Virus record (IMG/VR): IMGVR_UViG_3300028800_000057
Origin: a virus
Taxonomy: Duplodnaviria; Heunggongvirae; Uroviricota; Caudoviricetes
Length of the DNA stretch: 64,000 nt
Direction: 5' to 3' (one strand)
Shown here: one piece after another, positions 249 to 32,062 of the stretch
Position numbering within the stretch: position 1 is the stretch's first letter
How the letters are laid out: each line of letters opens with the position of its first letter
The notes under the pieces: model-generated
Told to the model about the DNA's origin: nothing
Database searches by the model: none
The model's input: the letters and a program-made list of their open reading frames with translations, nothing else
Translations under genes and position numbers: made by a program

Positions 249-935
249 ATGAAGCGAGAGCGCCAACTACACTCTGACTACACTACCCTGAAGTTAAGCA
301 AACGAAACCATGACTTGAAGCGAAGAGCTGTTGAATACAAAGGAGGTTGTTGCCAGGTTTGCGGTTACTCAAAATTCCTAGGTGCTTTGGAGTTCCACCA
401 CACTGATCCATCCCAGAAGGACTGGACAGTGGCTAGAAATCACAGGGCTTGGGAAGTGTTGAGGTTAGAGTTGGATAAATGTGTCTTGCTGTGTTCCAAC
501 TGTCATCGAGAAGAGCACGGTAAGATAATCAGTGAGCACCACGCTAAGTTAGAGCATTCTGTCAGATCGCAAATTCCAATTCGGCATACAAATCCAAAAG
601 TACCTCATACTTGTAAGACTTGTGGTGGGTTATTCTATGCTCGCCCAAGTACAGGTCAAGTTTACTGTAGTAAGAAGTGTCGTGAGACACTTGTGTGGCC
701 AAGTTCAGATGAGTTAGTAGAGATGCTTCATACTATGACCCCTAGTCAGATAGCTACTAAGTTGGGGTGCCACTCAAAGACAGTTAGAGAGAAGCTTCAT
801 AAGATAGGTATCACTTGGAATAGACACGGGCTTGTGGCGCAATTGGTAGCGCAGCGGACTCTTAATCCGAAGGTTGACGGGTTCAACTCCCTCCAGGCTC
901 ACTCAGTTTTTGATCCGACATCGTCCAACGGTTAG
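249..935 (+). CDS. HNH homing endonuclease with C-terminal HTH
   Basis: HNH motif (CQVCG...HH...N...CSNCH) and a C-terminal HTH-like segment shared with the other HNH ORFs here. The 3' end overlaps two tRNA genes (828-985). Confidence 0.6.
   Translation: MKRERQLHSDYTTLKLSKRNHDLKRRAVEYKGGCCQVCGYSKFLGALEFHHTDPSQKDWTVARNHRAWEVLRLELDKCVLLCSNCHREEHGKIISEHHAKLEHSVRSQIPIRHTNPKVPHTCKTCGGLFYARPSTGQVYCSKKCRETLVWPSSDELVEMLHTMTPSQIATKLGCHSKTVREKLHKIGITWNRHGLVAQLVAQRTLNPKVDGFNSLQAHSVFDPTSSNG
828..901 (+). tRNA. tRNA-Lys(CTT)-like
   Basis: Acceptor 828-834/894-900 fully paired, D-arm GCGCAATTGGTAGCGC, anticodon loop CTCTTAA. The T-stem is weak. Lies inside the 3' end of the HNH ORF. Confidence 0.4.
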
Positions 936-1740: not shown

Positions 1741-1826
1741 CGGAAGGGCCTCCTATAGGTGAGGGAAATTGTCTTGAAAACAATCGAGCGTAACAGCTCT
1801 GCGAGTTCGAATCCCGCTCCTTCCGC
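1741..1826 (+). tRNA. tRNA-Ser(TGA), type II
   Basis: Acceptor CGGAAGG/CCTTCCG, anticodon arm ATTGT-CTTGAAA-ACAAT, long variable arm, T-loop TTCGAAT. Confidence 0.65.
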
Positions 1827-1901
1827 TGGTGAGAATACTGATCTGGAGTACAATCTTGTTAATTGAATCCCTCTAGCTCGTTCCTTGTCTCACCTATCAA
1901 T

Positions 1902-1980: not shown

Positions 1981-2054
1981 GGCCTTGTCTTCTAAAGGAT
2001 CAGGATAACAGCCTTTCAAGTTGTCAATGTCGGGTTCGAGTCCCACCAAGGTCA
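1981..2054 (+). tRNA. tRNA-Glu(TTC)-like
   Basis: Acceptor GGCCTTG/CAAGGTC, anticodon arm ACAGC-CTTTCAA-GTTGT, T-loop TTCGAGT, CCA follows. The D-stem and T-stem are weak. Confidence 0.4.
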
Positions 2055-3738: not shown

Positions 3739-3822
3739 GGTCCCTTGGCGGAACTAGGCAGACGCGGTGGACTTAAAACCCACTACCCACGTGGTGTCCC
3801 GGTTCAAGTCCGGGAGGGACTA
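3739..3822 (+). tRNA. tRNA-Leu(TAA), type II
   Basis: Anticodon loop CTTAAAA, long variable arm, T-arm CCCGGTTCAAGTCCGGG, acceptor paired. Confidence 0.65.
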
Positions 3823-3831
3823 CTACTATAT

Positions 3832-3905
3832 TGGCCGGTAGCTCATCTGGTTAGAGCGCAGACCTGATAAGTCTGAGGTGCCCAGTTCAAGTCTGGGGCG
3901 GCCAA
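3832..3905 (+). tRNA. tRNA-Ile(GAT)
   Basis: GCTCATCTGGTTAGAGC D-arm, anticodon arm CAGAC-CTGATAA-GTCTG, T-arm CCCAGTTCAAGTCTGGG. Confidence 0.75.
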
Positions 3906-3916
3906 CTAAGCCATTG

Positions 3917-3940
3917 GAAAATGCAAGTGGGGACTACAAT
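3917..3940 (+). promoter_or_regulatory. conserved post-tRNA motif, copy A
   Basis: GGAAAATGCAAGTGGGGACTACAAT, 12 nt after the tRNA-Ile 3' end. Confidence 0.4.
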
Positions 3941-4078
3941 CGCAAAAACTGTACACGTCTCTACAACCTTCTTGTTTCCAGTGGTGGCTCTTCTCAGCTC
4001 GATGGTGGGTTGGACTAAATAGTAGGAGCATCAAGGGGTTGCCCCTACTATCTACCACCCTTGAGCGAAACTTTTCAT

Positions 4079-4163
4079 GCAATCGTGGTGGAACTAGGCA
4101 GACACGCGAGTTTCAGAAATTCGTGGGGTAATACCCGTGGAGGTTCGATTCCTCTCGATTGCA
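4079..4163 (+). tRNA. tRNA-Leu(CAG), type II
   Basis: Acceptor GCAATCG/CGATTGC, anticodon loop TTCAGAA, long variable arm, T-arm GGAGGTTCGATTCCTCT. Confidence 0.7.
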
Positions 4164-4169
4164 CTCCAT

Positions 4170-4252
4170 GCATCAGTGGCGGAACTGGCAGACGCGGTAG
4201 CCTCAAACACTACTGTCCTTGTGACGTGGGGGTTCGATTCCCTCCTGATGCA
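4170..4252 (+). tRNA. tRNA-Leu(CAA), type II
   Basis: Acceptor GCATCAG/CTGATGC, anticodon loop CTCAAAC, T-arm GGGGGTTCGATTCCCTC, CCA follows. Confidence 0.65.
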
Positions 4253-4262
4253 CCAAAGCACC

Positions 4263-4284
4263 AAATGCAGTTAGGACTACAAAC
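4263..4284 (+). promoter_or_regulatory. conserved post-tRNA motif, copy B
   Basis: CAAATGCAGTTAGGACTACAAA, 8 nt after the tRNA-Leu(CAA) CCA. Confidence 0.4.
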
Positions 4285-4405
4285 ATCCCCCGCCAAGAGC
4301 CCCGAAGTTTGCTTCGAGCCTCTTGGGGGGATTCGGATGTGTCCGCCCTCCAAAGGCGGTTTGCCTCCGGGTAATAATGTCTTGGCAATCACTTGTTGGT
4401 GCTTC

Positions 4406-5125
4406 CTAACTTGAGACTGTGCGAGGCTTGTACTTCTGTGGTGCAAAGCCGAGCCTTCGTTTGATGTACTTCTTGACTGCATTATCTGACACCCCTAGTC
4501 CAGCAGCTACTTTGGTGTAACTAGTCTGCACTACGGATCTGGCAAGATCTTCTACCGGTGGCCACTTGGTCTTGCTCTCTACATGCCTGCCTAAGCAGGA
4601 CTTACACCTGTCGGACTTTCTGTAGATCACTGCCCCACAAGAGCACCGTCTTGGGTCACTTCGATACCTACCTAGCTTAGATTTACCAGTGAATGTTTTG
4701 GTCTGACTGTGACAATTAGGACATAGGATATGAAGGTTCTCTATCCTGTTATCACTTGAATCCCCATTCTTGTGATCTAGCTGCAAGGTTAGTGGTTTTT
4801 CATTCCACTTTGGGCCTACTCCGCAGTCATCACATTGGTTAGGTAGCAGGCCCTCTTTGATCAACCTTTTTCGTAGTGGGTTACTACCATACTGACTATT
4901 CTCAACCAATATATCTACTAACGGGATCTTGGTTGTTCTTGGGGATGTACCATGCGCAAGGCCTTTGAAGTGTGTGGTGTCTACTCCAATCTTCTTTACA
5001 ACTAGGCCGACACTCTTGTAGTTTCCTGGGCTTGTGGTTAGGTGGAGTGCTCGTAGAACCCCAGCCATTGTGTTGTTGGTTTGAGTTGCCAACCGAAGGG
5101 CTTCATCTGACCAAGATCTTTTCAT
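4406..5125 (-). CDS. HNH homing endonuclease
   Basis: CDDCG...LDHKNG...NLHILCPNCH motif and a C-terminal HTH-like tail. Paralog of 24913..25686. Confidence 0.65.
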   Translation of the reverse strand: MKRSWSDEALRLATQTNNTMAGVLRALHLTTSPGNYKSVGLVVKKIGVDTTHFKGLAHGTSPRTTKIPLVDILVENSQYGSNPLRKRLIKEGLLPNQCDDCGVGPKWNEKPLTLQLDHKNGDSSDNRIENLHILCPNCHSQTKTFTGKSKLGRYRSDPRRCSCGAVIYRKSDRCKSCLGRHVESKTKWPPVEDLARSVVQTSYTKVAAGLGVSDNAVKKYIKRRLGFAPQKYKPRTVSS

Positions 5126-5171
5126 ATAGTAGCACCCTTATAGATAGAGTAGTTACACCAGTTCGATTCAT

Positions 5172-5246
5172 GGACTCTGAGCTAGTTTGGTAATTTAGCG
5201 TTCGGCTGAAGCCCGAAAGAACCTGGTTCGATCCCGGGAGAGTCCA
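5172..5246 (+). tRNA. tRNA-Phe(GAA)
   Basis: GCTAGTTTGGTAATTTAGC D-arm, anticodon arm TTCGG-CTGAAGC-CCGAA, T-arm CCTGGTTCGATCCCGGG. Confidence 0.75.
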
Positions 5247-5250
5247 CCGC

Positions 5251-5276
5251 GAAGAATGACTGCAGGGAGTACATTG
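5251..5276 (+). promoter_or_regulatory. conserved post-tRNA motif, copy C
   Basis: GAAGAATGACTGCAGGGAGTACATTG after tRNA-Phe. Confidence 0.4.
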
Positions 5277-5398
5277 CATTAGGAGCCGTGAACGTGAGTT
5301 CGAATCTCACTCCCCACACTAATCAAAGACCACGTGGGGATCGTCTAGTGGTCAGGACAGCGTACGTTTCTCTCTCAACTACTTGTCTTCGCGAATTA

Positions 5399-5472
5399 CA
5401 GGGTGTAGCTCAGTTTGGTAGAGCATCAGTCTGGGGGACTGAGGGTCGGACGTTCGAGTCGTCTCATCCTGA
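5399..5472 (+). tRNA. tRNA-Pro(GGG)
   Basis: GCTCAGTTTGGTAGAGC D-arm, anticodon arm TCAGT-CTGGGGG-ACTGA, T-arm GGACGTTCGAGTCGTCT. Confidence 0.7.
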
Positions 5473-5626
5473 CAACTTTGGTGTACTATTCAACATGTCA
5501 CTCAAACGAGGAACCCTCATTGGTGATACTCTGGCTCGGATGCCAGCCCCTGTGGTGAGGCACCTAATACCACTTGATGGGTAATGTGGTACCCTGCCCT
5601 CCAAGTGCTAGAAGAGTAATCGTTAC

Positions 5627-5698
5627 CGGGGTGTAGATCAGTGGTAGATCGCGTGCTTTGGGAGCATGAGGCCGTCAGTTCAAGTCTGACCACCCCGA
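5627..5698 (+). tRNA. tRNA-Pro(TGG)
   Basis: Acceptor CGGGGTG/CACCCCG, anticodon arm CGTGC-TTTGGGA-GCATG, T-arm GTCAGTTCAAGTCTGAC. Confidence 0.7.
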
Positions 5699-5726
5699 CT
5701 ATTCTTTTCGTATTCAGATCTACAAT

Positions 5727-6497
5727 ATGAGTTCTCTAGTTTCTCGGGTGGTTGCTAGGTATAAAGCTGCGGTTGATGTCCGAAGACTCAATCTAGCTTG
5801 GTATACATTCAAGGAGTGGAATCTATCGGGGCCTCTCTCTTTATTAGATACCATGAGTAAAGCGTTCGACTCGAAACCCTTGAGTGATAAGACCAGAAAA
5901 CTCCTGGACATTGATTCTAGGTTGAAGAAGTTAGACAAGGAATACACTCATCGATTCAAGTCTTTAATAGATGATCCCTCTGACTTACCCAACCTACAAA
6001 AAGAACTCAAGCGAGAACTTAAGCTAATCGGGCTTCTTCTTCAACGATATGACTTCAATGCTGACGATATCTACAGTGATATTGATGATTCTCCTATAGC
6101 CAAAGTACTTGTTGATTTTGATCGGAACGATCTGATAGATCGTATTGGGTCATTCCCTGAGGATGCTCCTACAGAGGAGGATCTAAGTTGGTTGAAGTCA
6201 TTAGACTTCTCTAAACAACAGAGGGCTCTGGATCAGGTTCATAGCTACATCCCAGACTTCTCACCTTCTGACCATGATTACGGTAGTTTCGCTTTCTTCA
6301 AGGAGTGGATACACAACCTTCCTACTAACTATGATGAGTGGGAGGATGCACTTCCATCTAACTTTGAAGAGATTAGCACTGATGTAGTAGAGACCAAGGT
6401 TGGTCAGGGTGTGACTAAGTACTTTGATGGCAACCAGTCGATCTTCGAGTACATCCAAGGTGACCTAGAGTCTCTTTTAGATGATCTCGAGATTTAG
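5727..6497 (+). CDS. hypothetical acidic protein with N-terminal RVAARY-type leader
   Basis: 256-aa ORF. The N-terminus MSSLVSRVVARYKAA matches a leader shared by at least five other ORFs. Confidence 0.5.
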   Translation: MSSLVSRVVARYKAAVDVRRLNLAWYTFKEWNLSGPLSLLDTMSKAFDSKPLSDKTRKLLDIDSRLKKLDKEYTHRFKSLIDDPSDLPNLQKELKRELKLIGLLLQRYDFNADDIYSDIDDSPIAKVLVDFDRNDLIDRIGSFPEDAPTEEDLSWLKSLDFSKQQRALDQVHSYIPDFSPSDHDYGSFAFFKEWIHNLPTNYDEWEDALPSNFEEISTDVVETKVGQGVTKYFDGNQSIFEYIQGDLESLLDDLEI

Positions 6498-6598: not shown

Positions 6599-6771
6599 CT
6601 AAGCCCGAATCATCAGGGATCATCTTACCTCTGTTACCTGACTTGGGCTGAAGCTGCTGAACTCTTGTAAGATGAGGGAAGCGGAAGCTGAATGGCAGTC
6701 GGTCTTGAGGGTCCGATCCAGCAAGATTTCTGAGGGTGCGCACCCAATAATGAGATCCTGCCAAACTTTAT

Positions 6772-6856
6772 GGAAGGTAAATCTGGATCTGGTCTGGAGC
6801 CCGCCTGCTGAGCGGTGCGTAGGTAACACTATGGCGTTCGAATCGTCTGCCTTCCG
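6772..6856 (+). tRNA. tRNA-Ser(GCT), type II
   Basis: Acceptor GGAAGGT/GCCTTCC, anticodon loop CTGCTGA, long variable arm, T-loop TTCGAAT. Confidence 0.55.
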
Positions 6857-6872
6857 CTGGTGTAACTTTAGT

Positions 6873-7433
6873 ATGCGAGTCTGCTCTTGTGGTAAAGAAG
6901 AAACCCCAGATGAGCCTTTTTACGATAAGAGTGCTGTCTGTAGGAAGTGCTACTACTTGAAGAAGGAGGGTACTGCTAAGATCTATCGAGATAACCAACG
7001 AATTAGGGATATGTATAATAGACTTGATCGGGATCGAAGAGCTAATCCTAGATTCAGATCCGGGTTCATACTCAAGGACTCTAAACAGTCAGATAGGAGG
7101 GCAGGGCGGTCAAATGACTTGACCAAAGAGATTATCGAGAAGTTAATCTCACAAGAGTGTCAGTATTGTGGTGAGACCTCACTTAAAATGACTTTGGATC
7201 GTAGAGGTAACTCACTTGGGCATCTTGAGTCCAATGTAATACCGTGTTGTATACGATGTAACTACATAAGAAGAGATATGCCTTATGAGGCTTGGATTCT
7301 ATTGAGTCCATTTCTTCGATTAGTTCGAGAGTCTGGTTTATTTGGTTCTTGGACTTGTGGTGTGGGTAATCGGACAAATGGAAGGGATGGGGTGAGTGGT
7401 CGCCCGCCAGCTTGGAAACCTGGATGCCCGTAA
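6873..7433 (+). CDS. HNH homing endonuclease
   Basis: CQYCGE...LDRRGNSLGHLESNVIPCCIRCN motif. The ORF track starts at 6672, but that part overlaps tRNA-Ser(GCT), so the start is taken at the ATG after the tRNA. The 3' end overlaps tRNA-Ser(GGA). Confidence 0.55.
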   Translation: MRVCSCGKEETPDEPFYDKSAVCRKCYYLKKEGTAKIYRDNQRIRDMYNRLDRDRRANPRFRSGFILKDSKQSDRRAGRSNDLTKEIIEKLISQECQYCGETSLKMTLDRRGNSLGHLESNVIPCCIRCNYIRRDMPYEAWILLSPFLRLVRESGLFGSWTCGVGNRTNGRDGVSGRPPAWKPGCP

Positions 7434-9277: not shown

Positions 9278-9350
9278 GCCCCAGTAGCTCAGTGGATAGA
9301 GTGTCGGTTTCCTAAACCGAATGCCGCTGGTTCGAGTCCAGCCTGGGGCA
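9278..9350 (+). tRNA. tRNA-Arg(CCT)
   Basis: GCTCAGTGGATAGAG D-arm, anticodon arm TCGGT-TTCCTAA-ACCGA, T-arm GCTGGTTCGAGTCCAGC. Confidence 0.75.
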
Positions 9351-9351
9351 C

Positions 9352-9481
9352 CGCGGAGAATGCAGTAAGGACTACAATTAATCAGCGTGTCACGGGTTCG
9401 AGTCCCGTCGTCCGCTTCGGCGGATGTAGCTCAGTTGGCAGAGCAGCCGAACACAATGTCTTTGCGATTCTTGTCTCCGCA
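9352..9481 (+). ncRNA. tRNA-derived structured element: conserved motif, then T-arm plus 3' acceptor strand, then a 5' acceptor strand plus D-arm
   Basis: AGAATGCAGTAAGGACTACAAT motif, then T-arm ACGGGTTCGAGTCCCGT plus CGTCCGC, a 5-nt spacer, then GCGGATGTAGCTCAGTTGGCAGAGC, ending in TCTCCGC. That end is the exact complement of GCGGAGA at 9352-9358. Confidence 0.3.
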
Positions 9482-9487
9482 AACTAT

Positions 9488-9561
9488 TGCCCTCTGATGC
9501 TGCTTGGGTAGGCAGCCGGCTTGTCACGCCGGTGTTGACGGGTTCAAATCCCGTAGGGGGC
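9488..9561 (+). tRNA. tRNA-Asp(GTC)
   Basis: Acceptor GCCCTCT/AGGGGGC, anticodon arm CCGGC-TTGTCAC-GCCGG, T-arm ACGGGTTCAAATCCCGT, CCA follows. Confidence 0.7.
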
Positions 9562-9589
9562 GCCAATCTTTTAATGCTAGAACCATGGT

Positions 9590-11747: not shown

Positions 11748-11820
11748 GCTGGTGTAGCTCAATTGGTAGAGCTCCTGCCTTGTAAGCAGGGGGTTGCGGG
11801 TTCAAGTCCCATCACCAGCT
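11748..11820 (+). tRNA. tRNA-Thr(TGT)
   Basis: Acceptor GCTGGTG/CACCAGC perfect, GCTCAATTGGTAGAGC D-arm, anticodon arm CCTGC-CTTGTAA-GCAGG, CCA follows. Confidence 0.75.
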
Positions 11821-11829
11821 CCAATCAAT

Positions 11830-11902
11830 GCGGGAGTAGCTCAGTTGGTAGAGTATTTGCTTCCCAAGCAAAATGTCGAGGGTTCGATTCCCTTCTCCCG
11901 CT
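11830..11902 (+). tRNA. tRNA-Gly(CCC)
   Basis: Acceptor GCGGGAG/CTCCCGC, anticodon arm TTTGC-TTCCCAA-GCAAA, T-arm GAGGGTTCGATTCCCTT. Confidence 0.75.
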
Positions 11903-14004: not shown

Positions 14005-14008
14005 CCAG

Positions 14009-14034
14009 GGAGAATGCTTGCTCGGAAGTACATT
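14009..14034 (+). promoter_or_regulatory. conserved post-tRNA motif, copy F
   Basis: GGAGAATGCTTGCTCGGAAGTACATT after tRNA-Gly(TCC), upstream of ORF 14158. Confidence 0.4.
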
Positions 14035-14157
14035 TAGTTCAAACCTGAAATCCCCCCGCTACTTATGGGGGATCGCCTTATGGAGGCATCTTTCGGCTTC
14101 TCTTGTCTCCCTCAGTCTAATGAACTTATCCAGTGGGTAAGTGTGTTTGATGACCTA

Positions 14158-15177: not shown

Positions 15178-15801
15178 ATGTCCCATGGACTTGTCTCGCT
15201 CAAAAAAGCGGCTGAAATCCTTGGTTGCGGAACCTCCACACTTCGAACTTGGGATAAGAACAAGAGCCTCGTAGCCGTTCGAACTCCTGGTGGTCAGCGC
15301 CGATACCGCACTGAAGACCTCGACCGCTTCCAGGGAATCATCAAGAAGACCTCCAAGAAGTCGGAGTCCGTGGCAGTCTACGCTCGTGTTTCTAGTCACG
15401 AGCAGAAGGCTAAAGGAGACCTCGACCGCCAGAAGGGAAGGCTTCTAGAGCATTGCGTCAAGCAGAGCTACTCGGTGACCCACGTCATGGAGGAGGTTGG
15501 ATCTGGGATGACGGACACTCGGCCGAAGATGCTACGGCTTCTTGAGCTGGCAACGAGGGGCGAGATTGGGCGAGTGGTTATCGAGCACAAAGATCGGTTA
15601 GCTCGGTTCAATTTCAACATATTCCAGAAGTTCTTCGAGAGTCACGGTGTACAGGTTGAATGGCTGGAAAACGTGCTTCCGAAGTCTTACGAGGCGGAAC
15701 TCGTTGAGGATATGGTCAGCCTTATGTCCAGCTTCTCAGCCAAAGTATATGGGAAACGCTCTGCTGAGAACCGCCGAAAGAAGAAGGCTGAAGCGGCATG
15801 A
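15178..15801 (+). CDS. tnpA: IS607-family TnpA (serine recombinase with N-terminal MerR-like HTH)
   Basis: An N-terminal HTH (AAEILGCGTSTLRTW) followed by a resolvase catalytic core (YARVSSHEQ...DRQ...R). Sits immediately upstream of, and overlapping, a TnpB gene. Confidence 0.7.
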   Translation: MSHGLVSLKKAAEILGCGTSTLRTWDKNKSLVAVRTPGGQRRYRTEDLDRFQGIIKKTSKKSESVAVYARVSSHEQKAKGDLDRQKGRLLEHCVKQSYSVTHVMEEVGSGMTDTRPKMLRLLELATRGEIGRVVIEHKDRLARFNFNIFQKFFESHGVQVEWLENVLPKSYEAELVEDMVSLMSSFSAKVYGKRSAENRRKKKAEAA

Positions 15802-17225
15802 AGAAGTGTAGGTTCTTCATGTTGCACTCCGAGTGCAATCCAGGGAAGGTTAAAGCTATCGAGGCCCTCCATGCTGAGTATGTGCTTTACGTTCGGATAT
15901 GCGTCCAGACGATGCTCTCCGCTCGCCGACTAAGCTTGCCCCGCTCGGAGAAGCAAGAGTTCTTTCCCCGAGCTGAGAACCTAACTTCACAGATTGAGAA
16001 GAACGCCCGTGATCATGCCATCCAGATCGTAAGTACCTGGGCCAAGGGGATCTATGCCAGGAAGCTCAAGACTTTCATCAGGTTATCCTTCAATGAAGGG
16101 ACTTTCGATGAGGACTTTCGGAAGCAACTCTGTACGGTCGGCAAGTATTTGGTTCACGATCCGAGTAAGACCGTGACCCAAGAGGCTATCAATCTGTATT
16201 GGGCTTGGCTCTCTGACCCAGAAGTAGTTGGAAACTTCCCAAGTGTGTCTAGTCGAATCCCAATGAGGATGTCTGAAAACACCTGCTCATTGGAAGATCC
16301 AGAAGAGGCTGTTCACGCTTATCTTTGGCTCAAGATCTCGACCTTAGTTTCTCGTAAGCTTGCCTGGCTCCCGCTGGTTGGAAACCCGTATGTCAAGAAG
16401 TCCTCTGATGTGGGTAAGGGGATTCATGCTAGAAAAGACCGAAAAGGCCGGTGGCGATTCGAAGCTGTTGACACCAAAGAATGGCTGATCTGTGAGGCGG
16501 AGCCAGACCTTCCAATGATCGGAGTAGATGTCGGGCTAAACGTAGTAGCGGCTACTTCGAGCGGACACACGTTTGGGGCAGACTTGAAACCCAAGTTTAA
16601 TCGGCTCTACAACAAGGTCAGGGCGGTTCGAGCGAACCGCCAAAGGCAGGGACTCAAAGAAAACAGCCCTAGACTCGACAGGCTTGAGTCCAAGCTCTCC
16701 GGCTTGACTAAGAGCATCACTGGACGGGTCTCCAATGAGCTTCTTCGAGCTTATCCAGAATCAGTCTTCGTCCTTGAGGACTTGGATCTTCGGGGTTGTC
16801 GTGGTCAAAAACGCTTTTGCTACAGAGCCTTAGCTCACGCTCTTGAGAGCAAAGCTCCGACCGATAAGGTGAATCCCGCTTATTCTAGTCAAACATGCCC
16901 TTCTTGTGGGCATGTCTCCAGGCTCAATCGGTCTGGAACCAGTTTCATCTGCCGCCAATGCGGCAGGATTTCACATGCTGATGTGGTAGGAGGGATCAAT
17001 CTGCTCAGACGTTCTGAGAGCAAACAGATTGGTCTCAATGATCACCCATCGGAAGTGAAGAGAATGCTTGTGAGGCTATACTGGTCTAGGAGGAATCCTA
17101 ACCAGGACTGTCCACAAGACTTCTTGAATAAATACGCGCCATTACCGTATGGCCGGAGGCTTACTACCAAGGGACGTTCTCGAAAGAGAAGCATTGGCAT
17201 AGCTTTTAATCAGGTAGTTGCTTGA
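15798..17225 (+). CDS. tnpB: TnpB (RuvC-like RNA-guided nuclease, IS605/IS607 family)
   Basis: RuvC-I (IGVDVGLN), RuvC-II (VFVLEDLD), zinc finger CPSCGH...CRQCG and RuvC-III (HADVVGGINL). Confidence 0.8.
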   Translation: MKKCRFFMLHSECNPGKVKAIEALHAEYVLYVRICVQTMLSARRLSLPRSEKQEFFPRAENLTSQIEKNARDHAIQIVSTWAKGIYARKLKTFIRLSFNEGTFDEDFRKQLCTVGKYLVHDPSKTVTQEAINLYWAWLSDPEVVGNFPSVSSRIPMRMSENTCSLEDPEEAVHAYLWLKISTLVSRKLAWLPLVGNPYVKKSSDVGKGIHARKDRKGRWRFEAVDTKEWLICEAEPDLPMIGVDVGLNVVAATSSGHTFGADLKPKFNRLYNKVRAVRANRQRQGLKENSPRLDRLESKLSGLTKSITGRVSNELLRAYPESVFVLEDLDLRGCRGQKRFCYRALAHALESKAPTDKVNPAYSSQTCPSCGHVSRLNRSGTSFICRQCGRISHADVVGGINLLRRSESKQIGLNDHPSEVKRMLVRLYWSRRNPNQDCPQDFLNKYAPLPYGRRLTTKGRSRKRSIGIAFNQVVA

Positions 17226-24912: not shown

Positions 24913-25686
24913 ATGACCTACTCTCGGGATGTTTTGGCTTCGGCGGTTTCCAAGAGCACATCGATCTTGGGTGTGGTCCATAACCTTGGATTGCAGTACA
25001 GGAGTGGCTCCGCTTGGGTAGCTGTTAAACGGGCCATACTTGAGCAAGGGCTGTCCACATCCCATTTCTGTGGAAGAGCCCATAATAAGGGTAAACCTAG
25101 CGATAAGAAGCTATCTCCTAGTCAGGTTCTGGTTGTTACTGATGGTAGGAACAGAACTAAACCAAAATTGCTTCGTCGCGCTATGACCGAAAGCGGGGTA
25201 CTCTACCAATGCTCATCTTGTGGGGTTGGCCCTGAATGGAATGGCAAGAAGTTGGTGTTAGAGGTGGATCACAAGAATGGCTTGTGGTGTGATTGCAGGT
25301 TAGGTAACCTTAGGTTTTTATGCCCTAACTGCCACTCTCAGGAGCCCACGTCTGTACGTAAGAAGACTCTGGTGCACGCTAAGTGCTCTGGTTGCGGGGT
25401 TGATATCGTATCTAGGGTTGATTCGAATGGGGTTCAAATGATTTCATTTTGTAGTCCGTCCTGCGGGTCAAAGTTCAGCCCCAGGGCAATCCAAGAGAAA
25501 GGTTCTTGGCCAACTAATTCAATCCTAAGTACTATGGTCTGGTCTATGCCAGTAGATAGATTGGCTAAAGAGATCGGAGTTTCTGGGTCTGCTGTCAAAA
25601 AGAGGTGTAGGCGTTTGGGGATCAACACCCCACCACGAGGGTACTGGTCGAAAAAGGTTGACCCTAGTGTATCTTCTGGGGTATGA
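24913..25686 (+). CDS. HNH homing endonuclease
   Basis: CSSCGVGPEWNGKKLVLEVDHKNG...NLRFLCPNCH motif and a C-terminal HTH-like tail. Paralog of 4406..5125 (minus strand). Confidence 0.65.
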   Translation: MTYSRDVLASAVSKSTSILGVVHNLGLQYRSGSAWVAVKRAILEQGLSTSHFCGRAHNKGKPSDKKLSPSQVLVVTDGRNRTKPKLLRRAMTESGVLYQCSSCGVGPEWNGKKLVLEVDHKNGLWCDCRLGNLRFLCPNCHSQEPTSVRKKTLVHAKCSGCGVDIVSRVDSNGVQMISFCSPSCGSKFSPRAIQEKGSWPTNSILSTMVWSMPVDRLAKEIGVSGSAVKKRCRRLGINTPPRGYWSKKVDPSVSSGV

Positions 25687-25747
25687 TTATCCTAATCGAT
25701 GGTTGTGATTACCATTAACTGGGATGTGTAGCAATCATCGTCTTTAT

Positions 25748-26094
25748 GGGAATGATCGGTTTCGACGTTGGGTGAAAGGATCTCTTGCGTGTAAGCGGCT
25801 CTCGAACCGCTCATCAATCGAGAAACGTTAATTGCGAACGACAATGCAATCGCCGCTGCGGCCTAAGAAACCGCGCGACCAGTTCCTAGAGAGATAGTCT
25901 TGGTATCGAAGGAGCTGCCAATCACAAGGCTGGCTTACCTCACGGGCTCCCGGTGAGGTGGCGAGATAAACAGGGTGATAGGTCGTAGGCCGAATCCACG
26001 AACTCAGTCGAGGGGGATACTTCGACTACGCACGTGAATGAGAGAGATACCAGACAACTGACGGACCGGGGTTCGATTCCCCGCATTTCCACCA
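25748..26094 (+). ncRNA. ssrA: tmRNA (ssrA), tag peptide ANDNAIAAAA
   Basis: 5' GGGAATGATCGGTTTCGACG and 3' ACGGACCGGGGTTCGATTCCCCGCATTTCC-A-CCA. The acceptor halves are complementary. Internal reading frame GCG AAC GAC AAT GCA ATC GCC GCT GCG GCC TAA at 25834-25866. Confidence 0.8.
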
Positions 26095-26191: not shown

Positions 26192-26755
26192 ATGGAAACT
26201 CGAACACTGCTTCTGAATTCTTGGGCAATGCCCCACGCGATCCTTACGTGGGATGATGCCATCTGCCTGGTTTACCAGGAGAAGGTAACCGTTCTGGAAG
26301 AGTATGACGAGATAGTTAGCTCACCCTCAATCTCATACTTTATCCCGGCGGTCATCCAGCTCCGACAGCCAGTTGCTGCAATGAAGAAGGGTGTTAAGTT
26401 TTCCAGGATTAACGTCTTCACTCGTGATGGCTTCAAGTGCCAGTACTGCGGTGAGCGCAAGACCATGCGCGAATTGAACTACGATCACGTCATCCCTCGC
26501 AAGCAAGGTGGAAAGACCAACTGGGAAAACATCGTGACTTGCTGCTATCCGTGCAACGAGCTCAAGACAAGTCGTACTCCAGAGCAGGCTGGGATGAGGT
26601 TGCTTCGAAAGCCCACCAAGCCGCACGCACTCCCACTTCATGCGGTCTATCTTGATTCAGGGAAGGTGCCTCTCGTTTGGGAGCCCTACTTGGATTGGTC
26701 TCGTGCTCAACAGCATGGGAACGGGTACTACTTAGTAGCACCTTCAGCTGCATAG
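26192..26755 (+). CDS. HNH endonuclease (McrA-like)
   Basis: CQYCGERKTMRELNYDHVIPRKQGGKTNWENIVTCCYPCN motif. Confidence 0.65.
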   Translation: METRTLLLNSWAMPHAILTWDDAICLVYQEKVTVLEEYDEIVSSPSISYFIPAVIQLRQPVAAMKKGVKFSRINVFTRDGFKCQYCGERKTMRELNYDHVIPRKQGGKTNWENIVTCCYPCNELKTSRTPEQAGMRLLRKPTKPHALPLHAVYLDSGKVPLVWEPYLDWSRAQQHGNGYYLVAPSAA

Positions 26756-27192: not shown

Positions 27193-27393
27193 CCGAGACC
27201 GCGCTAACGCTTGTCACCCCTTGGAAGTAACCCTTCAAGGTTACAGGCACCCTGCTTGGGTCTCTTTTTCAAAGACGTAGCCGCGCTTTAGTAGCTTGGG
27301 CAAAGTCTCGGACTTAACGGAAACTGTTTGGATTTGGGAGAGTGTCCAATCTCCGCATCCCAACGTCACTCACGTTCAGCGAGAGTATGTATC

Positions 27394-30120: not shown

Positions 30121-31524
30121 ATGTCCTTCAAGTATCAGGCTCAAAAAGTCGGTGACGCCCATTACGTCCTTCCGCGTTGCGGAACGATGAAAGTGGAGGC
30201 GCATGCTTTTATATCAGAACCTCTCTTCGAGGCTTCTGAGGAGCAGCTTTGGAGGCAACTTGCCAGTGGAGCATCCTATGATGGAGTGACTGGTGCTTAT
30301 TTGATGCCTGATTGCCACCCTGGGTTTGGCATTCCGACTGGGTGTGTCCTAATCACGGACAAAACTCTCATCCAAGCTGGGTCAGGGTACGACATCTCTT
30401 GTGGGGTTCTGTACTTGAAAGTCAATCTCTCTGCTAATTCGGTCAGGAGCTGGGATAAGCGGGAGCGGTGGGTTCAGGAGGTCGAGAAGCGGATCTCTAC
30501 GGGGAAGAACTCTTTTGTCCCTAATATGCGTCCATCCTTCAATAGCCGTCAGGTGCAGGACATTCTTCGATACGGTGCCAAGGCTATTGGGGTGCCACGG
30601 GAGCTCTGCGAGCGGCATTACATACCGATTCCGGATGACACTAAGCTTACAAAGATTGATCGTGCCTACTCAAGGGTGCTTCCCCATATAGCTTCTGTTG
30701 GCGGGGGTAACCACTTTGTGGAGATGCAGGTCGACAGGGATACTGGAGAAGTATTCGTCATGATCCATTGCGGATCCCGCGGGTATGGGTGGCATACGGC
30801 AAACCATTACTTTTACGAAGGGGCTAAGCTACGGAACCTCCACCCAGATGCTCGAGAGGATTCCTGGCTTTACATTGACGAACCTCTTGGGCGAGAGTAC
30901 TGGGCATACCATAATTCGGCCGCTAACTTCGCTATCGCCAATAGGCATCTGATTGTACGTGGGATTCAAGAGTCAATTCAGGAGGTCTTCAACACAGACT
31001 CTGAAGTTTACTACGAGATCTCTCACAACTTGGTCCAAGAGGAAACCCTGGTACTTCCGGATGGTACTACGAAGAAGGGGTTCGTTCACCGGAAGGGTGC
31101 AACCCGAGCATTCCCAGCTGGTCACCCGGAACTGATCGGGACCCGCTGGGAGAAGACCGGCCACCCATGTCTAATACCGGGATCAATGATGGATGGAGCT
31201 GCTATCCTGTTTGCTGAACCAGGGGCCTACCAAACTGCTTGCTCAGTGAATCATGGATCTGGTAGAAAGATGGCTCGTGGTGAAGCCAAGAGGAAGTTGG
31301 AGCCCGAGCAGCTCCGGATTGACGATGAGATGAGGACCGTCAAGCGCGAGTTTGCTGGAGTGTCCATTGAGGGTATTGTTGGAAACCACCAGCACACGCC
31401 ATTGGATGAATGCGAGCACGTGTACAAGGACCTCGATGAGGTCTTGGATGTTCTTGAGGCAAACAAGATCGCGAAGGTTGCCCATCGATTGTATCCTGTA
31501 GCTAATATTAAGGGAAGCGACTGA
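30121..31524 (+). CDS. rtcB: RtcB RNA ligase (3'-phosphate/5'-OH)
   Basis: Conserved RtcB blocks, including HCGSRGYGWHTANHY and NHGSGR, with Cys/His metal ligands. 467 aa. Confidence 0.85.
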   Translation: MSFKYQAQKVGDAHYVLPRCGTMKVEAHAFISEPLFEASEEQLWRQLASGASYDGVTGAYLMPDCHPGFGIPTGCVLITDKTLIQAGSGYDISCGVLYLKVNLSANSVRSWDKRERWVQEVEKRISTGKNSFVPNMRPSFNSRQVQDILRYGAKAIGVPRELCERHYIPIPDDTKLTKIDRAYSRVLPHIASVGGGNHFVEMQVDRDTGEVFVMIHCGSRGYGWHTANHYFYEGAKLRNLHPDAREDSWLYIDEPLGREYWAYHNSAANFAIANRHLIVRGIQESIQEVFNTDSEVYYEISHNLVQEETLVLPDGTTKKGFVHRKGATRAFPAGHPELIGTRWEKTGHPCLIPGSMMDGAAILFAEPGAYQTACSVNHGSGRKMARGEAKRKLEPEQLRIDDEMRTVKREFAGVSIEGIVGNHQHTPLDECEHVYKDLDEVLDVLEANKIAKVAHRLYPVANIKGSD

Positions 31525-31525
31525 A

Positions 31526-32062
31526 ATGGACGAGAAGACCTTAGTCAAGAAGAGCAGGCACCTGAGTAAGGTTCTCCGTCATGAACCGGATTCAGTAGGT
31601 ATTACGCTCACTGAAGCCGGTTGGGCTCCAATATCGTCTATTCTTTCGGCCTTGAACCTCAAGCGAGAAGAACTCAACCAAGTCGTAGCAGAGAACAACA
31701 AGAATCGATTCGAGTTCTCCGAGAACGGGATGTTCATCCGAGCTCGTCAAGGGCACTCAGTAGAAGTGGATCTGGGGTACCCAGAGGCTACCCCACCGGA
31801 TACTCTCTACCATGGTACTTCACGTCAAACAGTATCGGTGGTTCTTCGAGATGGCATCAAGAAGATGCTTCGACACCATGTGCACATGTCACCGGATCTC
31901 GAGACAGCTAAGGTTGTGGCCTCGCGCCGGTCCGACCCAAAAATCCTTAAGGTTGATTCTAAGTCCATGTCAGCTGCAGGGATCAAGTTCTACCTAACAG
32001 GTAATGGTGTATGGTTGACTGATTATGTCGACCCAAAGTACGTCAGCGAGTACCACTCCTGA
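31526..32062 (+). CDS. kptA: Tpt1/KptA RNA 2'-phosphotransferase
   Basis: LSKVLRHEP...GWAPI...RARQGHS...HGTS pattern typical of KptA. 178 aa. Confidence 0.75.
   Translation: MDEKTLVKKSRHLSKVLRHEPDSVGITLTEAGWAPISSILSALNLKREELNQVVAENNKNRFEFSENGMFIRARQGHSVEVDLGYPEATPPDTLYHGTSRQTVSVVLRDGIKKMLRHHVHMSPDLETAKVVASRRSDPKILKVDSKSMSAAGIKFYLTGNGVWLTDYVDPKYVSEYHS

What the first reader, a model, noticed from the sequence alone, without database searches (positions are those of the whole stretch)
5290..5375. tRNA halves in inverted order: T-arm plus 3' acceptor strand, a 16-nt spacer, then a perfectly complementary 5' acceptor strand plus D-arm (tRNA-Glu-like)
Positions 5294-5318 are GTGAGTTCGAATCTCAC-TCCCCAC-A, a T-arm followed by a 3' acceptor strand. 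Positions 5334-5358 are GTGGGGA-TC-GTCTAGTGGTCAGGAC, the exact complementary 5' acceptor strand followed by a Glu/Asp-type D-arm. The 3' half comes first. The same layout recurs at 9395-9445 (T-arm + CGTCCGC, spacer TTCG, then GCGGATG + D-arm). Both follow the conserved motif described above. This resembles permuted tRNA gene architecture or a novel tRNA-derived structured RNA. Recombination scars seem less likely because the pattern occurs twice with different sequences.
Basis: seen in the sequence. Interest (0 to 1): 0.6.

Follow-up and report, generated by a model that had tools for sequence, protein, structure and literature searches.

The report
Y RNA genes that mimic tRNA
The "inverted tRNA halves" are two genes for YrlA-type Y RNAs, a known class of bacterial and phage non-coding RNA whose tip folds like a circularly permuted tRNA; here they are two of six related genes in a large phage's tRNA array, with no Ro60 partner gene nearby.

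Summary
At 5294-5358 and 9392-9444 (+), a T-arm and 3' acceptor strand come before the complementary 5' acceptor strand and a D-arm.

These are not permuted tRNA genes or recombination scars. Each is the tip of a 131-147 nt RNA (5249-5395, 9353-9483) whose ends pair into a long conserved stem. Both align end to end with Rfam YrlA (RF02553; 59.3 and 22.3 bits, below the 69-bit cut-off).

A model built only from the second locus and two orthologues finds:
- the first locus (52.7 bits);
- Y RNAs beside Ro60 genes in dozens of phage contigs;
- a bacterial rtcR/rsr-YrlA-tRNA-YrlA-tRNA operon with the same stem motif.

Across 29 relatives, 98% of pair positions are paired, 26 of 33 pairs show double changes, and all 7 acceptor pairs covary.

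The window holds six such genes. Each starts within 7 nt of a tRNA 3' end, and four lack the tRNA-like tip. No Ro60 gene lies within about 81 kb, but RtcB, Tpt1 and a tmRNA do.

Most likely they are Ro60-binding Y RNAs cut out of the tRNA array by tRNA-processing enzymes. Verdict: a new member of a known kind, of moderate interest.

The parts
5249..5395 (+). Y RNA gene of YrlA type, 'type 1' (147 nt). This is the whole gene that contains the first finding.
   Evidence: Matches Rfam YrlA end to end (22.3 bits, E 0.008 in a local search). Own model R1 gives 52.7 bits over positions 1-131. The MFE fold gives the same architecture. An independent MAFFT + RNAalifold run on 8 orthologues predicts the same six helices plus two short extra pairings, with 7 compensated pairs.
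5249..5255 (+). 5' strand of the closing stem (GCGAAGA). It pairs with 5386-5392 (TCTTCGC). The conserved internal loop is AUGAC (5256-5260) opposite ACUACUUG (5378-5385). Stem 2 is 5261-5269 with 5370-5377.
   Evidence: Sequence. 7/7 pairs. Pairs G-C and A-U alternate among orthologues. Aligns to the Rsr-binding module of the Rfam YrlA consensus.
5294..5310 (+). T-arm mimic: GTGAG / TTCGAAT / CTCAC.
   Evidence: The stem covaries: G-C becomes A-U and C-G becomes U-A among orthologues.
5311..5340 (+). Acceptor-stem mimic: 3' strand TCCCCAC (5311-5317), 16-nt loop starting A-C-U-A-A (5318-5333), 5' strand GTGGGGA (5334-5340).
   Evidence: Perfect 7 bp. Orthologues carry CCTCCGC/GCGGGGG and TCCCCGC/GCGGGGA. 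In 5 of 8 orthologues the 3' strand is followed by N-CCA. A-C-U-A is the form found after the phage's own CCA-less tRNA genes.
5343..5358 (+). D-arm mimic: GTCT / AGTGGTCA / GGAC. It is preceded by T8-like T5341.
   Evidence: ARAGORN accepts it as a D-arm in the re-permuted construct.
9353..9483 (+). Y RNA gene of YrlA type, 'type 2' (131 nt). This is the whole gene that contains the second locus named in the finding.
   Evidence: Rfam YrlA 59.3 bits, E 2.8e-11, end to end. MFE fold has z = -2.1 and the same architecture. Orthologues are at L001:10060-10193 and L007:9622-9753, with 7 more from metagenomes.
9392..9444 (+). tRNA-like tip of type 2: T-arm 9392-9408; acceptor mimic CGTCCGC-TTCG-GCGGATG at 9409-9426; D-arm 9429-9444.
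   Evidence: Acceptor helices in orthologues are CGTTCGC/GCGAACG, CACCCAC/GTGGGTG, CCTTGGC/GCCAAGG and CCGTCTC/GGGACGG. All 7 acceptor pairs covary.
4258..4405 (+). Paralogous Y-like RNA with the same basal stem and loops (GCACCAA-AUGCA-GUUAGGAC...GUCUUGGC-AAUCACUUG-UUGGUGC). Its tip is not tRNA-like; it has three hairpins.
   Evidence: R1 32.9 bits, E 1e-7, model 1-131. MFE -63 kcal/mol, z = -4.5. Orthologues at L308:296-442, L249 and L351. No Rfam match.
1828..1897 (+). Mini Y-like RNA (about 70 nt): basal stem, conserved loops and a small apical loop.
   Evidence: R1 25.2 bits. 7/7 closing pairs. Fold z = -2.5. Orthologue at L001:643-712.
3914..3984 (+). Second mini Y-like RNA (about 70 nt).
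   Evidence: R1 27.7 bits, E 4e-6, found only with filters off. 7/7 closing pairs. Fold.
14007..14115 (+). Sixth Y-like RNA: same basal module (AGGGAGA-AUGCU...CUCUUG-UCUCCCU) with three small apical hairpins.
   Evidence: R1 18.6 bits. 7/7 closing pairs. Fold. Same-type loci at L007:5206-5309, L270:6700-6802 and L280:1904-2008. This is the weakest of the six.
5172..5248 (+). tRNA-Phe(gaa). Its 3' end abuts the first base of the type-1 Y RNA.
   Evidence: ARAGORN. The order tRNA-Phe, Y RNA, tRNA-Pro(ggg) is the same in the related 512-kb phage contig.
5399..5473 (+). tRNA-Pro(ggg), starting 3 nt after the type-1 Y RNA.
9278..9352 (+). tRNA-Arg(cct). Its 3' end abuts the first base of the type-2 Y RNA.
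   Evidence: The same order is seen in L001.
9489..9565 (+). tRNA-Asp(gtc), starting 5 nt after the type-2 Y RNA.
30121..32062 (+). Context, not part of the RNA: RtcB RNA ligase (30121-31524) and Tpt1/KptA RNA 2'-phosphotransferase (31526-32062). In bacteria rtcB is the usual operon partner of rsr and yrlA.
   Evidence: Pfam RtcB 283 bits. Pfam PTS_2-RNA 149 bits.

Best explanation
Both loci are genes for YrlA-type Y RNAs, and the window holds six Y RNA-like genes in all.

Architecture:
- Each RNA's 5' and 3' ends pair into a long stem carrying conserved internal loops: 5' ..GA-AUGC..GACUACA.. opposite ..CUUG-UC.. 3'. This corresponds to the Ro60 (Rsr) binding module of known YrlA RNAs.
- The tip of the two loci in the finding is a tRNA look-alike made of a variable loop, T-arm, closed acceptor stem and D-arm. 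It is a circular permutation of the top half of a tRNA with no anticodon loop.

Inferred mechanism:
- The RNAs are transcribed with the + strand tRNA array. RNase P and the tRNA 3'-end enzymes act on the abutting tRNAs and so release the Y RNAs.
- The stem recruits a Ro60/Rsr ring protein. That protein would be host-encoded, or phage-encoded outside the 81 kb examined.
- The tRNA-like tip engages a tRNA-recognising factor. The complex would then act in RNA decay or repair alongside the phage's RtcB, Tpt1 and tmRNA.
- Type 1 has a 7-bp acceptor stem and an A-C-U-A (A-CCA in orthologues) start to its loop. It is probably opened by RNase P and given a CCA end, as shown experimentally for M. smegmatis YrlA.

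What is shown and what is inferred:
- Shown here: family resemblance, structure, covariation, conserved gene order, and linkage of the same stem motif to rsr in a bacterium.
- Inferred: expression, processing, Ro60 binding and function.
- My confidence that these are YrlA-family RNAs is about 0.9. My confidence that they act through Ro60 is about 0.6.
For: 1. Both loci match Rfam RF02553 YrlA end to end.

2. Model R1 was built only from locus 2 and two orthologues. It finds:
- locus 1, full length, at 52.7 bits;
- full-length hits next to Ro60 genes, mostly upstream of them, in many of 60 Ro60-encoding viral contigs, for example L052 at 70 bits and L029 at 67.6 bits.

3. Covariation in 29 clade members: 98% of pair cells are paired against 78% in shuffles and 41-56% in slid controls. 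26 of 33 pairs have double changes. All 7 acceptor pairs covary. An alignment not fitted to the model gives the same fold.

4. A Phycisphaeraceae MAG contig (L254 = L437) carries rtcR divergently transcribed from rsr (TROVE + vWA_Ro60), followed by a mini-Y-like hairpin, YrlA, tRNA-Pro, YrlA and tRNA-Arg.
- Its first YrlA has the same basal variant as the window: UCGGAGAAUGC..GGGACUACA..CUUGUCUCCGA.
- That YrlA scores 64 bits in Rfam, also below the cut-off.
- Its second YrlA has the canonical GCGAAUG form.

5. The nucleotides needed for tRNA tertiary contacts are present: T8, A14, G15 with C48, GG in the D loop, and TTCGA in the T loop. ARAGORN accepts the re-ordered halves as tRNAs.

6. Gene order is conserved in a related 512-kb phage contig: tRNA-Phe, Y RNA, tRNA-Pro, and tRNA-Arg(cct) followed directly by a Y RNA.

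7. RNA-repair genes lie in the same window: RtcB, Tpt1, a HAD_SAK_1 protein right after locus 2 and tRNA-Asp, a SpoU methylase and a tmRNA.

8. Literature:
- YrlA architecture, and 22 phages with YrlA (PMC4201824).
Against: - Both loci score below Rfam's gathering cut-off (59.3 and 22.3 against 69).
- The published GNCGAAN0-1G motif is not met literally. The C is A in the two loci and its partner is U.
- No TROVE/Ro60 gene was found in the 64-kb window, in 7 kb upstream or in 10 kb downstream. Chen et al. found nearly all YrlA genes within 4 kb of Ro60.
- The two related phage contigs never appeared in four Ro60 scans of IMG/VR, although those lists were capped.
- There is no expression, processing or binding data of any kind.
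- MFE z-scores of the single sequences are modest (-1.0 and -2.1).
Confidence: 0.8

Rival explanations
1. Ro60-independent tRNA mimics. The phage makes these RNAs as decoys or competitive inhibitors of host enzymes that recognise the tRNA elbow and acceptor, for example defence nucleases that cut tRNAs, or as sponges for tRNA-processing factors. On this view the conserved stem binds some other protein, or only stabilises the RNA.
For: - No Ro60 gene lies within about 81 kb.
- The RNAs sit in a 37-gene tRNA array next to RNA-repair genes, a setting typical of counter-defence against tRNA cleavage.
- Hughes et al. 2020 (PMC7790460) themselves suggest that the YrlA tRNA-like domain may competitively inhibit an anticodon nuclease.
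Against: - Four of the six paralogues have no tRNA-like part but keep the stem and its unpaired conserved bases. The stem, not the mimic, is therefore the common functional unit.
- The same stem variant sits directly downstream of rsr in a bacterial operon.
- Without an anticodon loop the RNA cannot be a substrate-type decoy for anticodon nucleases.
Confidence: 0.14
2. Circularly permuted tRNA genes. The transcript would be circularised or re-ligated and then opened in the acceptor loop to give a working, decoding tRNA, as in the red alga Cyanidioschyzon merolae.
For: - The order of the halves is the order in permuted tRNA genes.
- The acceptor stem is 7 bp and is followed by A-C(C)A in orthologues.
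- The phage encodes RtcB and Tpt1, which could seal RNA ends.
- Wang et al. 2018 raise this possibility for YrlA in general.
Against: - Neither locus nor any orthologue has an anticodon stem-loop. The position is filled by a 15-bp interrupted stem with conserved loops that is shared with non-tRNA paralogues.
- Type 2 closes its acceptor stem with a UUCG tetraloop and has no CCA.
- No bulge-helix-bulge motif is evident, and (from the literature) no bacterial splicing endonuclease is known.
- ARAGORN needs a borrowed anticodon arm to call the halves a tRNA.
Confidence: 0.03
3. Debris of the tRNA array: the 3' end of one degraded tRNA gene followed by the 5' end of another. These would be recombination or deletion scars, or the known 'dimeric tRNA' false positive of YrlA searches.
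For: - The loci lie in a dense tRNA array.
- Chen et al. warn that adjacent tRNAs can mimic a YrlA hit.
- My own model does give such hits, for example at 11783-11867.
Against: - True dimeric-tRNA hits are local (model positions 27-105), overlap two called tRNAs and have non-complementary 'acceptor' strands.
- The two loci are full-length hits, overlap no tRNA and have 7-bp complementary strands.
- They are conserved with compensatory changes in at least 17 other sequences.
Confidence: 0.01
4. A two-piece, aminoacylatable tRNA-like RNA, analogous to permuted two-piece tmRNA. RNase P would open the acceptor loop of type 1, a CCA end would be made, and the RNA would be charged and act on ribosomes.
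For: - 7-bp acceptor stem.
- A-CCA or U-CCA is encoded right after the 3' strand in 5 of 8 type-1 orthologues, and A-C-U-A in the window.
- M. smegmatis YrlA is cleaved and receives CCA in vivo.
Against: - There is no anticodon or SmpB-type substitute and no reading frame.
- Type 2 and the other four paralogues cannot do this.
- Rfam's tmRNA_permuted model gave no hit at either locus. Standard tmRNA matched only the T-arm and acceptor at 9.9 bits.
- Charging has never been shown for any YrlA.
Confidence: 0.02

Closest known systems
YrlA (Y RNA-like A), Rfam RF02553: S. Typhimurium and M. smegmatis YrlA, and the YrlA RNAs of Ro60-encoding mycobacteriophages (Chen et al. 2014, PMC4201824; Wang et al. 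2018, bioRxiv 10.1101/312249)
   Same: - A long stem formed by the RNA's two ends, with an AUGC / CUUG internal loop.
- A tip made of variable loop, T-arm, closed acceptor stem and D-arm, with the tRNA tertiary-contact nucleotides.
- Similar length: 131-147 nt here, about 147 nt in M. smegmatis.
- A 7-bp acceptor stem, as in M. smegmatis.
- More than one Y RNA per genome.
- RtcB nearby.
   Different: - Scores are below the Rfam cut-off.
- The C of the GNCGAA motif is A, with a compensating U.
- The genes are not next to a Ro60 gene; none lies within about 81 kb.
- The genes are wedged between tRNA genes of a 37-gene phage array.
- There are six paralogues, four of them without the tRNA-like tip.
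The rtcR / rsr-Y RNA-tRNA operon of an uncultured Phycisphaeraceae MAG (CALCCF010000013.1; loci L254 and L437).
   Same: - The same basal-stem variant (GGAGAAUGC..GACUACA..CUUGUCUCC).
- Y RNAs alternate with tRNA genes at gaps of about 4-5 nt.
- A mini Y-like hairpin lies alongside the tRNA-like Y RNAs.
- Its YrlA is the best bacterial match to the window's type 2 (70 bits with model R1).
   Different: It is bacterial, has high G+C, and carries rsr and rtcR immediately adjacent. The phage window has neither.
YrlB and other small Y RNAs without a tRNA-like domain (S. Typhimurium YrlB, D. radiodurans Yrn2)
   Same: The window's mini (about 70 nt) and non-tRNA paralogues keep only the protein-binding stem. 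This is like a second, smaller Y RNA encoded beside YrlA.
   Different: No sequence similarity was tested and no Rfam model matched. The analogy rests on architecture only.
Circularly permuted tRNA genes of Cyanidioschyzon merolae and some green algae (Soma et al. 2007; cited)
   Same: The 3' half lies upstream of the 5' half. The acceptor stem is first closed by a loop, and the ends pair in a stem.
   Different: Those transcripts carry a complete anticodon arm after processing and become decoding tRNAs. They need a eukaryotic or archaeal splicing endonuclease. Here there is no anticodon loop.
Two-piece (permuted) tmRNA, Rfam RF04321
   Same: The gene order is permuted, with the T-arm and 3' acceptor strand first. 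There is a tRNA-like domain.
   Different: There is no tag reading frame, no pseudoknots and no model match at the loci. The window has a normal one-piece tmRNA at 25748-26094.

Membership tests
YrlA / bacterial Y RNA (RF02553) | The 5' and 3' ends pair into a long stem interrupted by internal loops. | tested here: met
   MFE folds. Alignments to Rfam and to R1. 100% and 96% pairing in helices 1 and 2, with 10 pairs showing double changes.
YrlA / bacterial Y RNA (RF02553) | The apical domain is ordered variable loop, T-arm, closed acceptor-like stem, D-arm, and carries the tRNA tertiary-contact nucleotides. | tested here: met
   Sequence. RNAalifold. ARAGORN on re-ordered halves. Met for 5249-5395 and 9353-9483 only; not met by the other four paralogues.
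YrlA / bacterial Y RNA (RF02553) | Conserved GNCGAAN0-1G motif in the 5' strand (the proposed Rsr binding site). | tested here: inconclusive
   The window has G-N-A-G-A-A-U-G. The C is replaced by A and its pairing partner G by U. The same variant occurs in a YrlA directly downstream of rsr in a bacterium, next to a second YrlA with the canonical GCGAAUG.
YrlA / bacterial Y RNA (RF02553) | Score at or above the Rfam gathering cut-off (69 bits). | tested here: not met
   59.3 and 22.3 bits. For comparison, the rsr-linked bacterial YrlA in L254 scores 64 bits and phage GMA2's scores 43 bits, so the cut-off also misses genuine Ro60-linked members.
YrlA / bacterial Y RNA (RF02553) | Encoded within about 4 kb of a Ro60/Rsr (TROVE) gene on the same strand. 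| tested here: not met
   Pfam on all ORFs of 100 aa or more. tblastn with 25 Ro60 proteins. Flanks of -7 kb and +10 kb. The rest of the genome could not be read.
YrlA / bacterial Y RNA (RF02553) | Physically bound by Ro60/Rsr. | not testable with these tools
   Needs immunoprecipitation or a gel-shift assay.
YrlA / bacterial Y RNA (RF02553) | Homology to Y RNAs that do lie beside Ro60. | tested here: met
   Model R1, built from the window's type 2 and two orthologues, gives full-length hits next to Ro60 genes, mostly upstream of them, in many IMG/VR contigs, and partial hits covering the tRNA-like core in the annotated phages A3Wally and GMA2.
Circularly permuted tRNA gene | After re-joining, the transcript has a complete anticodon stem and a 7-nt loop. 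| tested here: not met
   No such element exists in either locus or any orthologue. The position is taken by the conserved basal stem. ARAGORN needs a foreign anticodon arm.
Circularly permuted tRNA gene | 3' half upstream of 5' half, with complementary acceptor strands. | tested here: met
Permuted two-piece tmRNA | A tag-peptide reading frame and pseudoknots downstream of the 5' acceptor strand; a match to RF04321. | tested here: not met
   No RF04321 hit at either locus. The only hit overlaps the standard tmRNA at 25667-25866.

The most novel reading that the evidence does not exclude
A clade of very large phages carries an expanded, modular family of Y RNA genes: six per 20 kb here, and up to five in 2 kb in relatives. 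Its proposed features are:
- One conserved protein-binding stem is fused to interchangeable tips: a tRNA-Glu-like tip, a second tRNA-like tip, non-tRNA hairpins, or almost nothing.
- The genes are embedded in the tRNA array, so the tRNA-processing enzymes release them.
- The phage has no Ro60 of its own. The RNAs would therefore capture the host's Ro60/PNPase machinery, or work without Ro60 as tRNA-mimic decoys during the contest over tRNA cleavage and repair.
- Type 1 would be opened by RNase P and carry a CCA end.
Probability: 0.25. Interest if true: 0.65.

Novelty: new member of a known kind. Interest (0 to 1): 0.38.

Why it matters
- **Annotation.** Y RNAs with a tRNA-like tip are known from about 250 bacteria and 22 phages, almost always beside Ro60. 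These copies fall below the Rfam cut-off, so standard annotation misses them. They are unannotated even in the deposited phages A3Wally and GMA2.
- **A test case for function.** Six paralogues sit inside a huge-phage tRNA array, next to RtcB, Tpt1 and a tmRNA, with no Ro60 gene in 81 kb. This gives a natural way to ask what the tRNA-like tip is for, whether phages use the host's Ro60, and whether Y RNAs take part in the phage-host conflict over tRNA cleavage.
- **A search handle.** The shared stem with swappable tips can be used to find further Y RNAs that lack any tRNA resemblance.
- **What it is not.** It is not a new kind of RNA and not a permuted tRNA gene.

Tried and rejected
- **Permuted tRNA or tmRNA.** ARAGORN and the Rfam tRNA and tmRNA_permuted models give nothing at the loci. 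Rejected for lack of an anticodon arm.
- **Scar or dimeric-tRNA artefact.** Rejected by covariation, and by contrast with real dimeric-tRNA hits.
- **Close relatives through neighbouring proteins.** The HAD_SAK protein found nothing in IMG/VR. The 256-aa ORF found one related 512-kb contig, not the window itself.
- **MAFFT alignment of type 1 with type 2.** It misaligned the D-arm, so I built the model from type 2 alone and let it align the rest.
- **Search for Ro60.**
  - Pfam on all ORFs, including concatenated small ORFs.
  - tblastn with actinophage-type and bacterial-type Ro60.
  - Window flanks.
  - Four IMG/VR scans.
  - All were negative for this clade. The IMG/VR lists are capped at 80 rows and use actinophage-derived motifs, so absence from the whole genome is not shown.
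- **The VWA protein at 27328-28854 as a disguised Ro60.** Its VWA domain is N-terminal and there is no TROVE domain. Not Ro60.
- **PHROGs on unknown ORFs between the Y genes.** Nothing RNA-related.
- **The review PMC10870794.** Not held in the library.
- **Rfam on the four non-tRNA paralogues.** No match.
Full report
**Observation.**
- Locus 1: a T-arm (GTGAG/TTCGAAT/CTCAC, 5294-5310) is followed by TCCCCAC (5311-5317), a 16-nt loop, the exact complement GTGGGGA (5334-5340), TC, and a D-arm (5343-5358).
- Locus 2: a T-arm (9392-9408) is followed by CGTCCGC, a TTCG loop, GCGGATG (7 bp with one G.U), TA, and a D-arm (9429-9444).
- ARAGORN finds 37 tRNA genes and a tmRNA in the window, all on the + strand, but nothing at these two places.

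**What they are.**
- An all-family Rfam search of the first 27 kb matched 9353-9483 end to end to RF02553 (YrlA, 'Y RNA-like') at 59.3 bits, E = 2.8e-11.
- A local search matched 5249-5395 end to end to the same family at 22.3 bits. Both scores are below the 69-bit gathering cut-off.
  - The 5' end (GCGAAGA / GCGGAGA) pairs with the 3' end (TCTTCGC / TCTCCGC).
  - A conserved internal loop follows (AUGC on one side, CUUG on the other).
  - A second stem comes next, ending in GA(C/G)UACA.
  - The tRNA-like domain sits on top.
- Single-sequence folding gives this architecture for both loci.
- This is the published YrlA design: a stem that carries the Ro60 (Rsr) binding site and an effector domain that mimics the acceptor, T and D arms of tRNA (Chen et al. 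2014, PMC4201824). Wang et al. (bioRxiv 10.1101/312249) describe YrlA RNAs as resembling circularly permuted tRNAs with closed acceptor stems.
- When I put the two halves back in tRNA order around a borrowed anticodon arm, ARAGORN called both as tRNAs. In native order it calls none. Everything a tRNA needs is present except the anticodon arm.

**Relatives and covariation.**
- The window itself is not in IMG/VR. A 512-kb contig (IMGVR_UViG_3300028654_000001, locus L001) is 88-97% identical in patches.
- L001 keeps the same order: tRNA-Phe, Y RNA, tRNA-Pro(ggg), and tRNA-Arg(cct) followed directly by a Y RNA.
- Pattern scans of IMG/VR and of metagenomes brought in more relatives.
- I built a covariance model (R1) from locus 2 and two orthologues only. 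It finds locus 1 at 52.7 bits over its full length. It also finds full-length matches next to Ro60 genes, mostly upstream of them, in many of 60 Ro60-encoding viral contigs, and partial matches covering the tRNA-like core in the deposited phages A3Wally and GMA2, where the RNA is unannotated.
- On 29 clade members, 98% of pair cells are standard pairs, against 78% in shuffles and 41-56% when partners are slid. 26 of 33 pairs change on both sides, and all seven acceptor pairs covary.
- Acceptor helices include TCCCCAC/GTGGGGA, CCTCCGC/GCGGGGG, CGTTCGC/GCGAACG, CACCCAC/GTGGGTG and CCTTGGC/GCCAAGG.
- That alignment is fitted to the model. As a check, I ran MAFFT plus RNAalifold on the eight type-1 orthologues. 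It predicts the same six helices, plus two short extra pairings, with seven compensated pairs.
- Scars and chance are excluded. The known 'dimeric tRNA' false positive does occur with my model (for example 11783-11867). Those hits are local, overlap two called tRNAs and have non-complementary strands.

- A filters-off search and an independent motif-plus-complementarity scan agree on six loci: 1828-1897, 3914-3984, 4258-4405, 5249-5395, 9353-9483 and 14007-14115.
- All six are on the + strand and all have 7/7 closing pairs. Shuffles give 0.11 on average.
- All six share the basal stem and its unpaired conserved bases.
- Four have no tRNA-like tip. Two are about 70-nt 'mini' forms and two carry other hairpins. 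Rfam recognises none of these four.
- The stem is therefore the common functional unit, and the tRNA-like tip is one of several modules.
- Each gene begins no more than 7 nt after a tRNA 3' end. Three are followed within 3-5 nt by the next tRNA.

**Link to Ro60.**
- I found no TROVE/Ro60 gene in the window, in 7 kb upstream or in 10 kb downstream.
- The two related contigs never appeared in Ro60 scans of IMG/VR. Those lists are capped and motif-limited, so this is inconclusive.
- The same stem variant is tied to Ro60 elsewhere. A Phycisphaeraceae MAG contig (L254 = L437) has rtcR transcribed divergently from rsr (TROVE + vWA_Ro60). Downstream of rsr lie a mini Y-like hairpin, a YrlA with UCGGAGAAUGC..GGGACUACA..CUUGUCUCCGA, tRNA-Pro, a second YrlA with the canonical GCGAAUG, and tRNA-Arg.
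- That Ro60-linked YrlA scores 64 bits in Rfam, also under the cut-off.
- So the A-for-C change in the GNCGAA motif (with a compensating U) and the interleaving with tRNAs both occur in a Ro60 operon (TROVE + vWA_Ro60 rsr beside rtcR).

**Mechanism (inferred).**
- The RNAs are probably co-transcribed with the array and released by RNase P and the tRNA 3'-end enzymes acting on the flanking tRNAs.
- The stem would bind Ro60/Rsr, supplied by the host or encoded elsewhere in the genome. That genome is at least about 230 kb, judging by the contig.
- The tip would engage a tRNA-recognising factor. In D. radiodurans a Y RNA tethers Rsr to PNPase.
- The window also encodes RtcB, Tpt1/KptA, a SpoU methylase, a HAD_SAK_1 RNA-repair-type protein and a tmRNA. 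This echoes the bacterial rsr-yrlA-rtcB grouping.
- Type 1 has a 7-bp acceptor stem. Its loop starts A-C-U-A-A, the same form that follows 16 of the phage's 37 tRNA genes (N73-C-U). Five of eight orthologues encode N-CCA there.
- M. smegmatis YrlA also has a 7-bp stem. It is cut by RNase P and gains CA to complete a CCA end in vivo. I predict the same for type 1.
- The UUCG-capped type 2 probably stays closed.

**Rivals.**
- A Ro60-independent decoy role is the main alternative. It fits the missing Ro60 gene and the suggestion of Hughes et al.. It does not explain why the stem is the conserved part.
- A true permuted tRNA, a two-piece chargeable RNA and array debris are each contradicted by the sequence or by covariation.

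**Verdict.** These are divergent members of the known YrlA/Y RNA family, not a new kind of RNA. Three things are new:
- they are embedded in a huge-phage tRNA array;
- they form a six-member modular paralogue set;
- they are apparently separated from Ro60.

Interest is moderate.

Noticed in passing
window 1828-1897, 3914-3984, 4258-4405, 14007-14115 (+): Four further Y RNA-like genes share the basal stem and loops of the two reported loci but have no tRNA-like tip. No Rfam family matches them. They would be missed by any tRNA-based or YrlA-based search.
   Followed up: partly
window 27328-28854 (+): A 508-aa protein has an N-terminal von Willebrand A domain and an unknown C-terminal half. It lies between the tmRNA and RtcB. 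Its only homologue among the loci I held (38.5% identity over 449 aa) lies 2.6 kb downstream of a Ro60 gene in a 194-kb viral contig (L094:8186-9514). This may be a functional link to Ro60/RNA repair, or coincidence.
   Followed up: partly
window 15178-17225 (+): An IS607-like pair sits inside the tRNA array: a serine recombinase with a MerR-type HTH (15178-15801), followed by a TnpB/Cas12f-like protein (15798-17225).
   Followed up: no
window 249-935, 4406-5125 (-), 6672-7433, 26192-26755, 29489-30052: Several homing-type endonuclease genes (HNH, endonuclease VII-like, GIY-YIG) are scattered through the tRNA and RNA-repair region. The HNH gene at 4406-5125 separates a Y RNA from tRNA-Phe; these are only about 78 nt apart in relative L308. 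The GIY-YIG gene follows two short ORFs (28905-29105, 29202-29489) that look like pieces of one gene.
   Followed up: no
window 1742-1825 and 1981-2054 (+): Rfam calls two tRNA genes here (38 and 39.8 bits) that ARAGORN does not. The array therefore holds at least 39 tRNA genes.
   Followed up: no
window 25748-26094 (+): A phage-encoded one-piece tmRNA (111.8 bits) has the tag ANDNAIAAAA. An RtcB-Tpt1-SpoU methylase cluster lies at 30121-32624.
   Followed up: no
L003 (Gordonia phage GMA2, KR063281) 5552-5963, 5988-6097, 6273-6329: The deposited record lacks three RNA features just downstream of its unnamed Ro60 gene (Orf59). These are a tmRNA (94.6 bits, overlapping the annotated CDS Orf58), a YrlA (43 bits) and a Pistol ribozyme (56.8 bits, above its cut-off) inside the tRNA array.
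   Followed up: no
L437 (Phycisphaeraceae MAG CALCCF010000013.1) 3775-6099 (-), rtcR on the other strand: A bacterial Ro60 operon in which Y RNAs alternate with tRNA genes: rsr, mini-Y-like hairpin, YrlA, tRNA-Pro, YrlA, tRNA-Arg. Its first YrlA is the closest bacterial match to the phage's type 2, which may hint at the phage's host lineage or at gene transfer.
   Followed up: partly
L330:723-2577, L322, L333, L347 (metagenome contigs): Relatives pack up to five Y RNA-like genes into 2 kb. They include types absent from the window: a form with an extra hairpin before the T-arm and a GNRA-capped 8-bp acceptor stem, and a form with only a T-arm.
   Followed up: no
window tRNA 3' ends (e.g. 3823, 3906, 10500, 11088, 19006): About 16 of 37 tRNA genes end N73-C followed by T (often CTAA) rather than an encoded CCA, and 15 encode CCA. 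The phage therefore depends on 3' trimming and a CCA-adding enzyme for roughly half of its tRNAs.
   Followed up: partly
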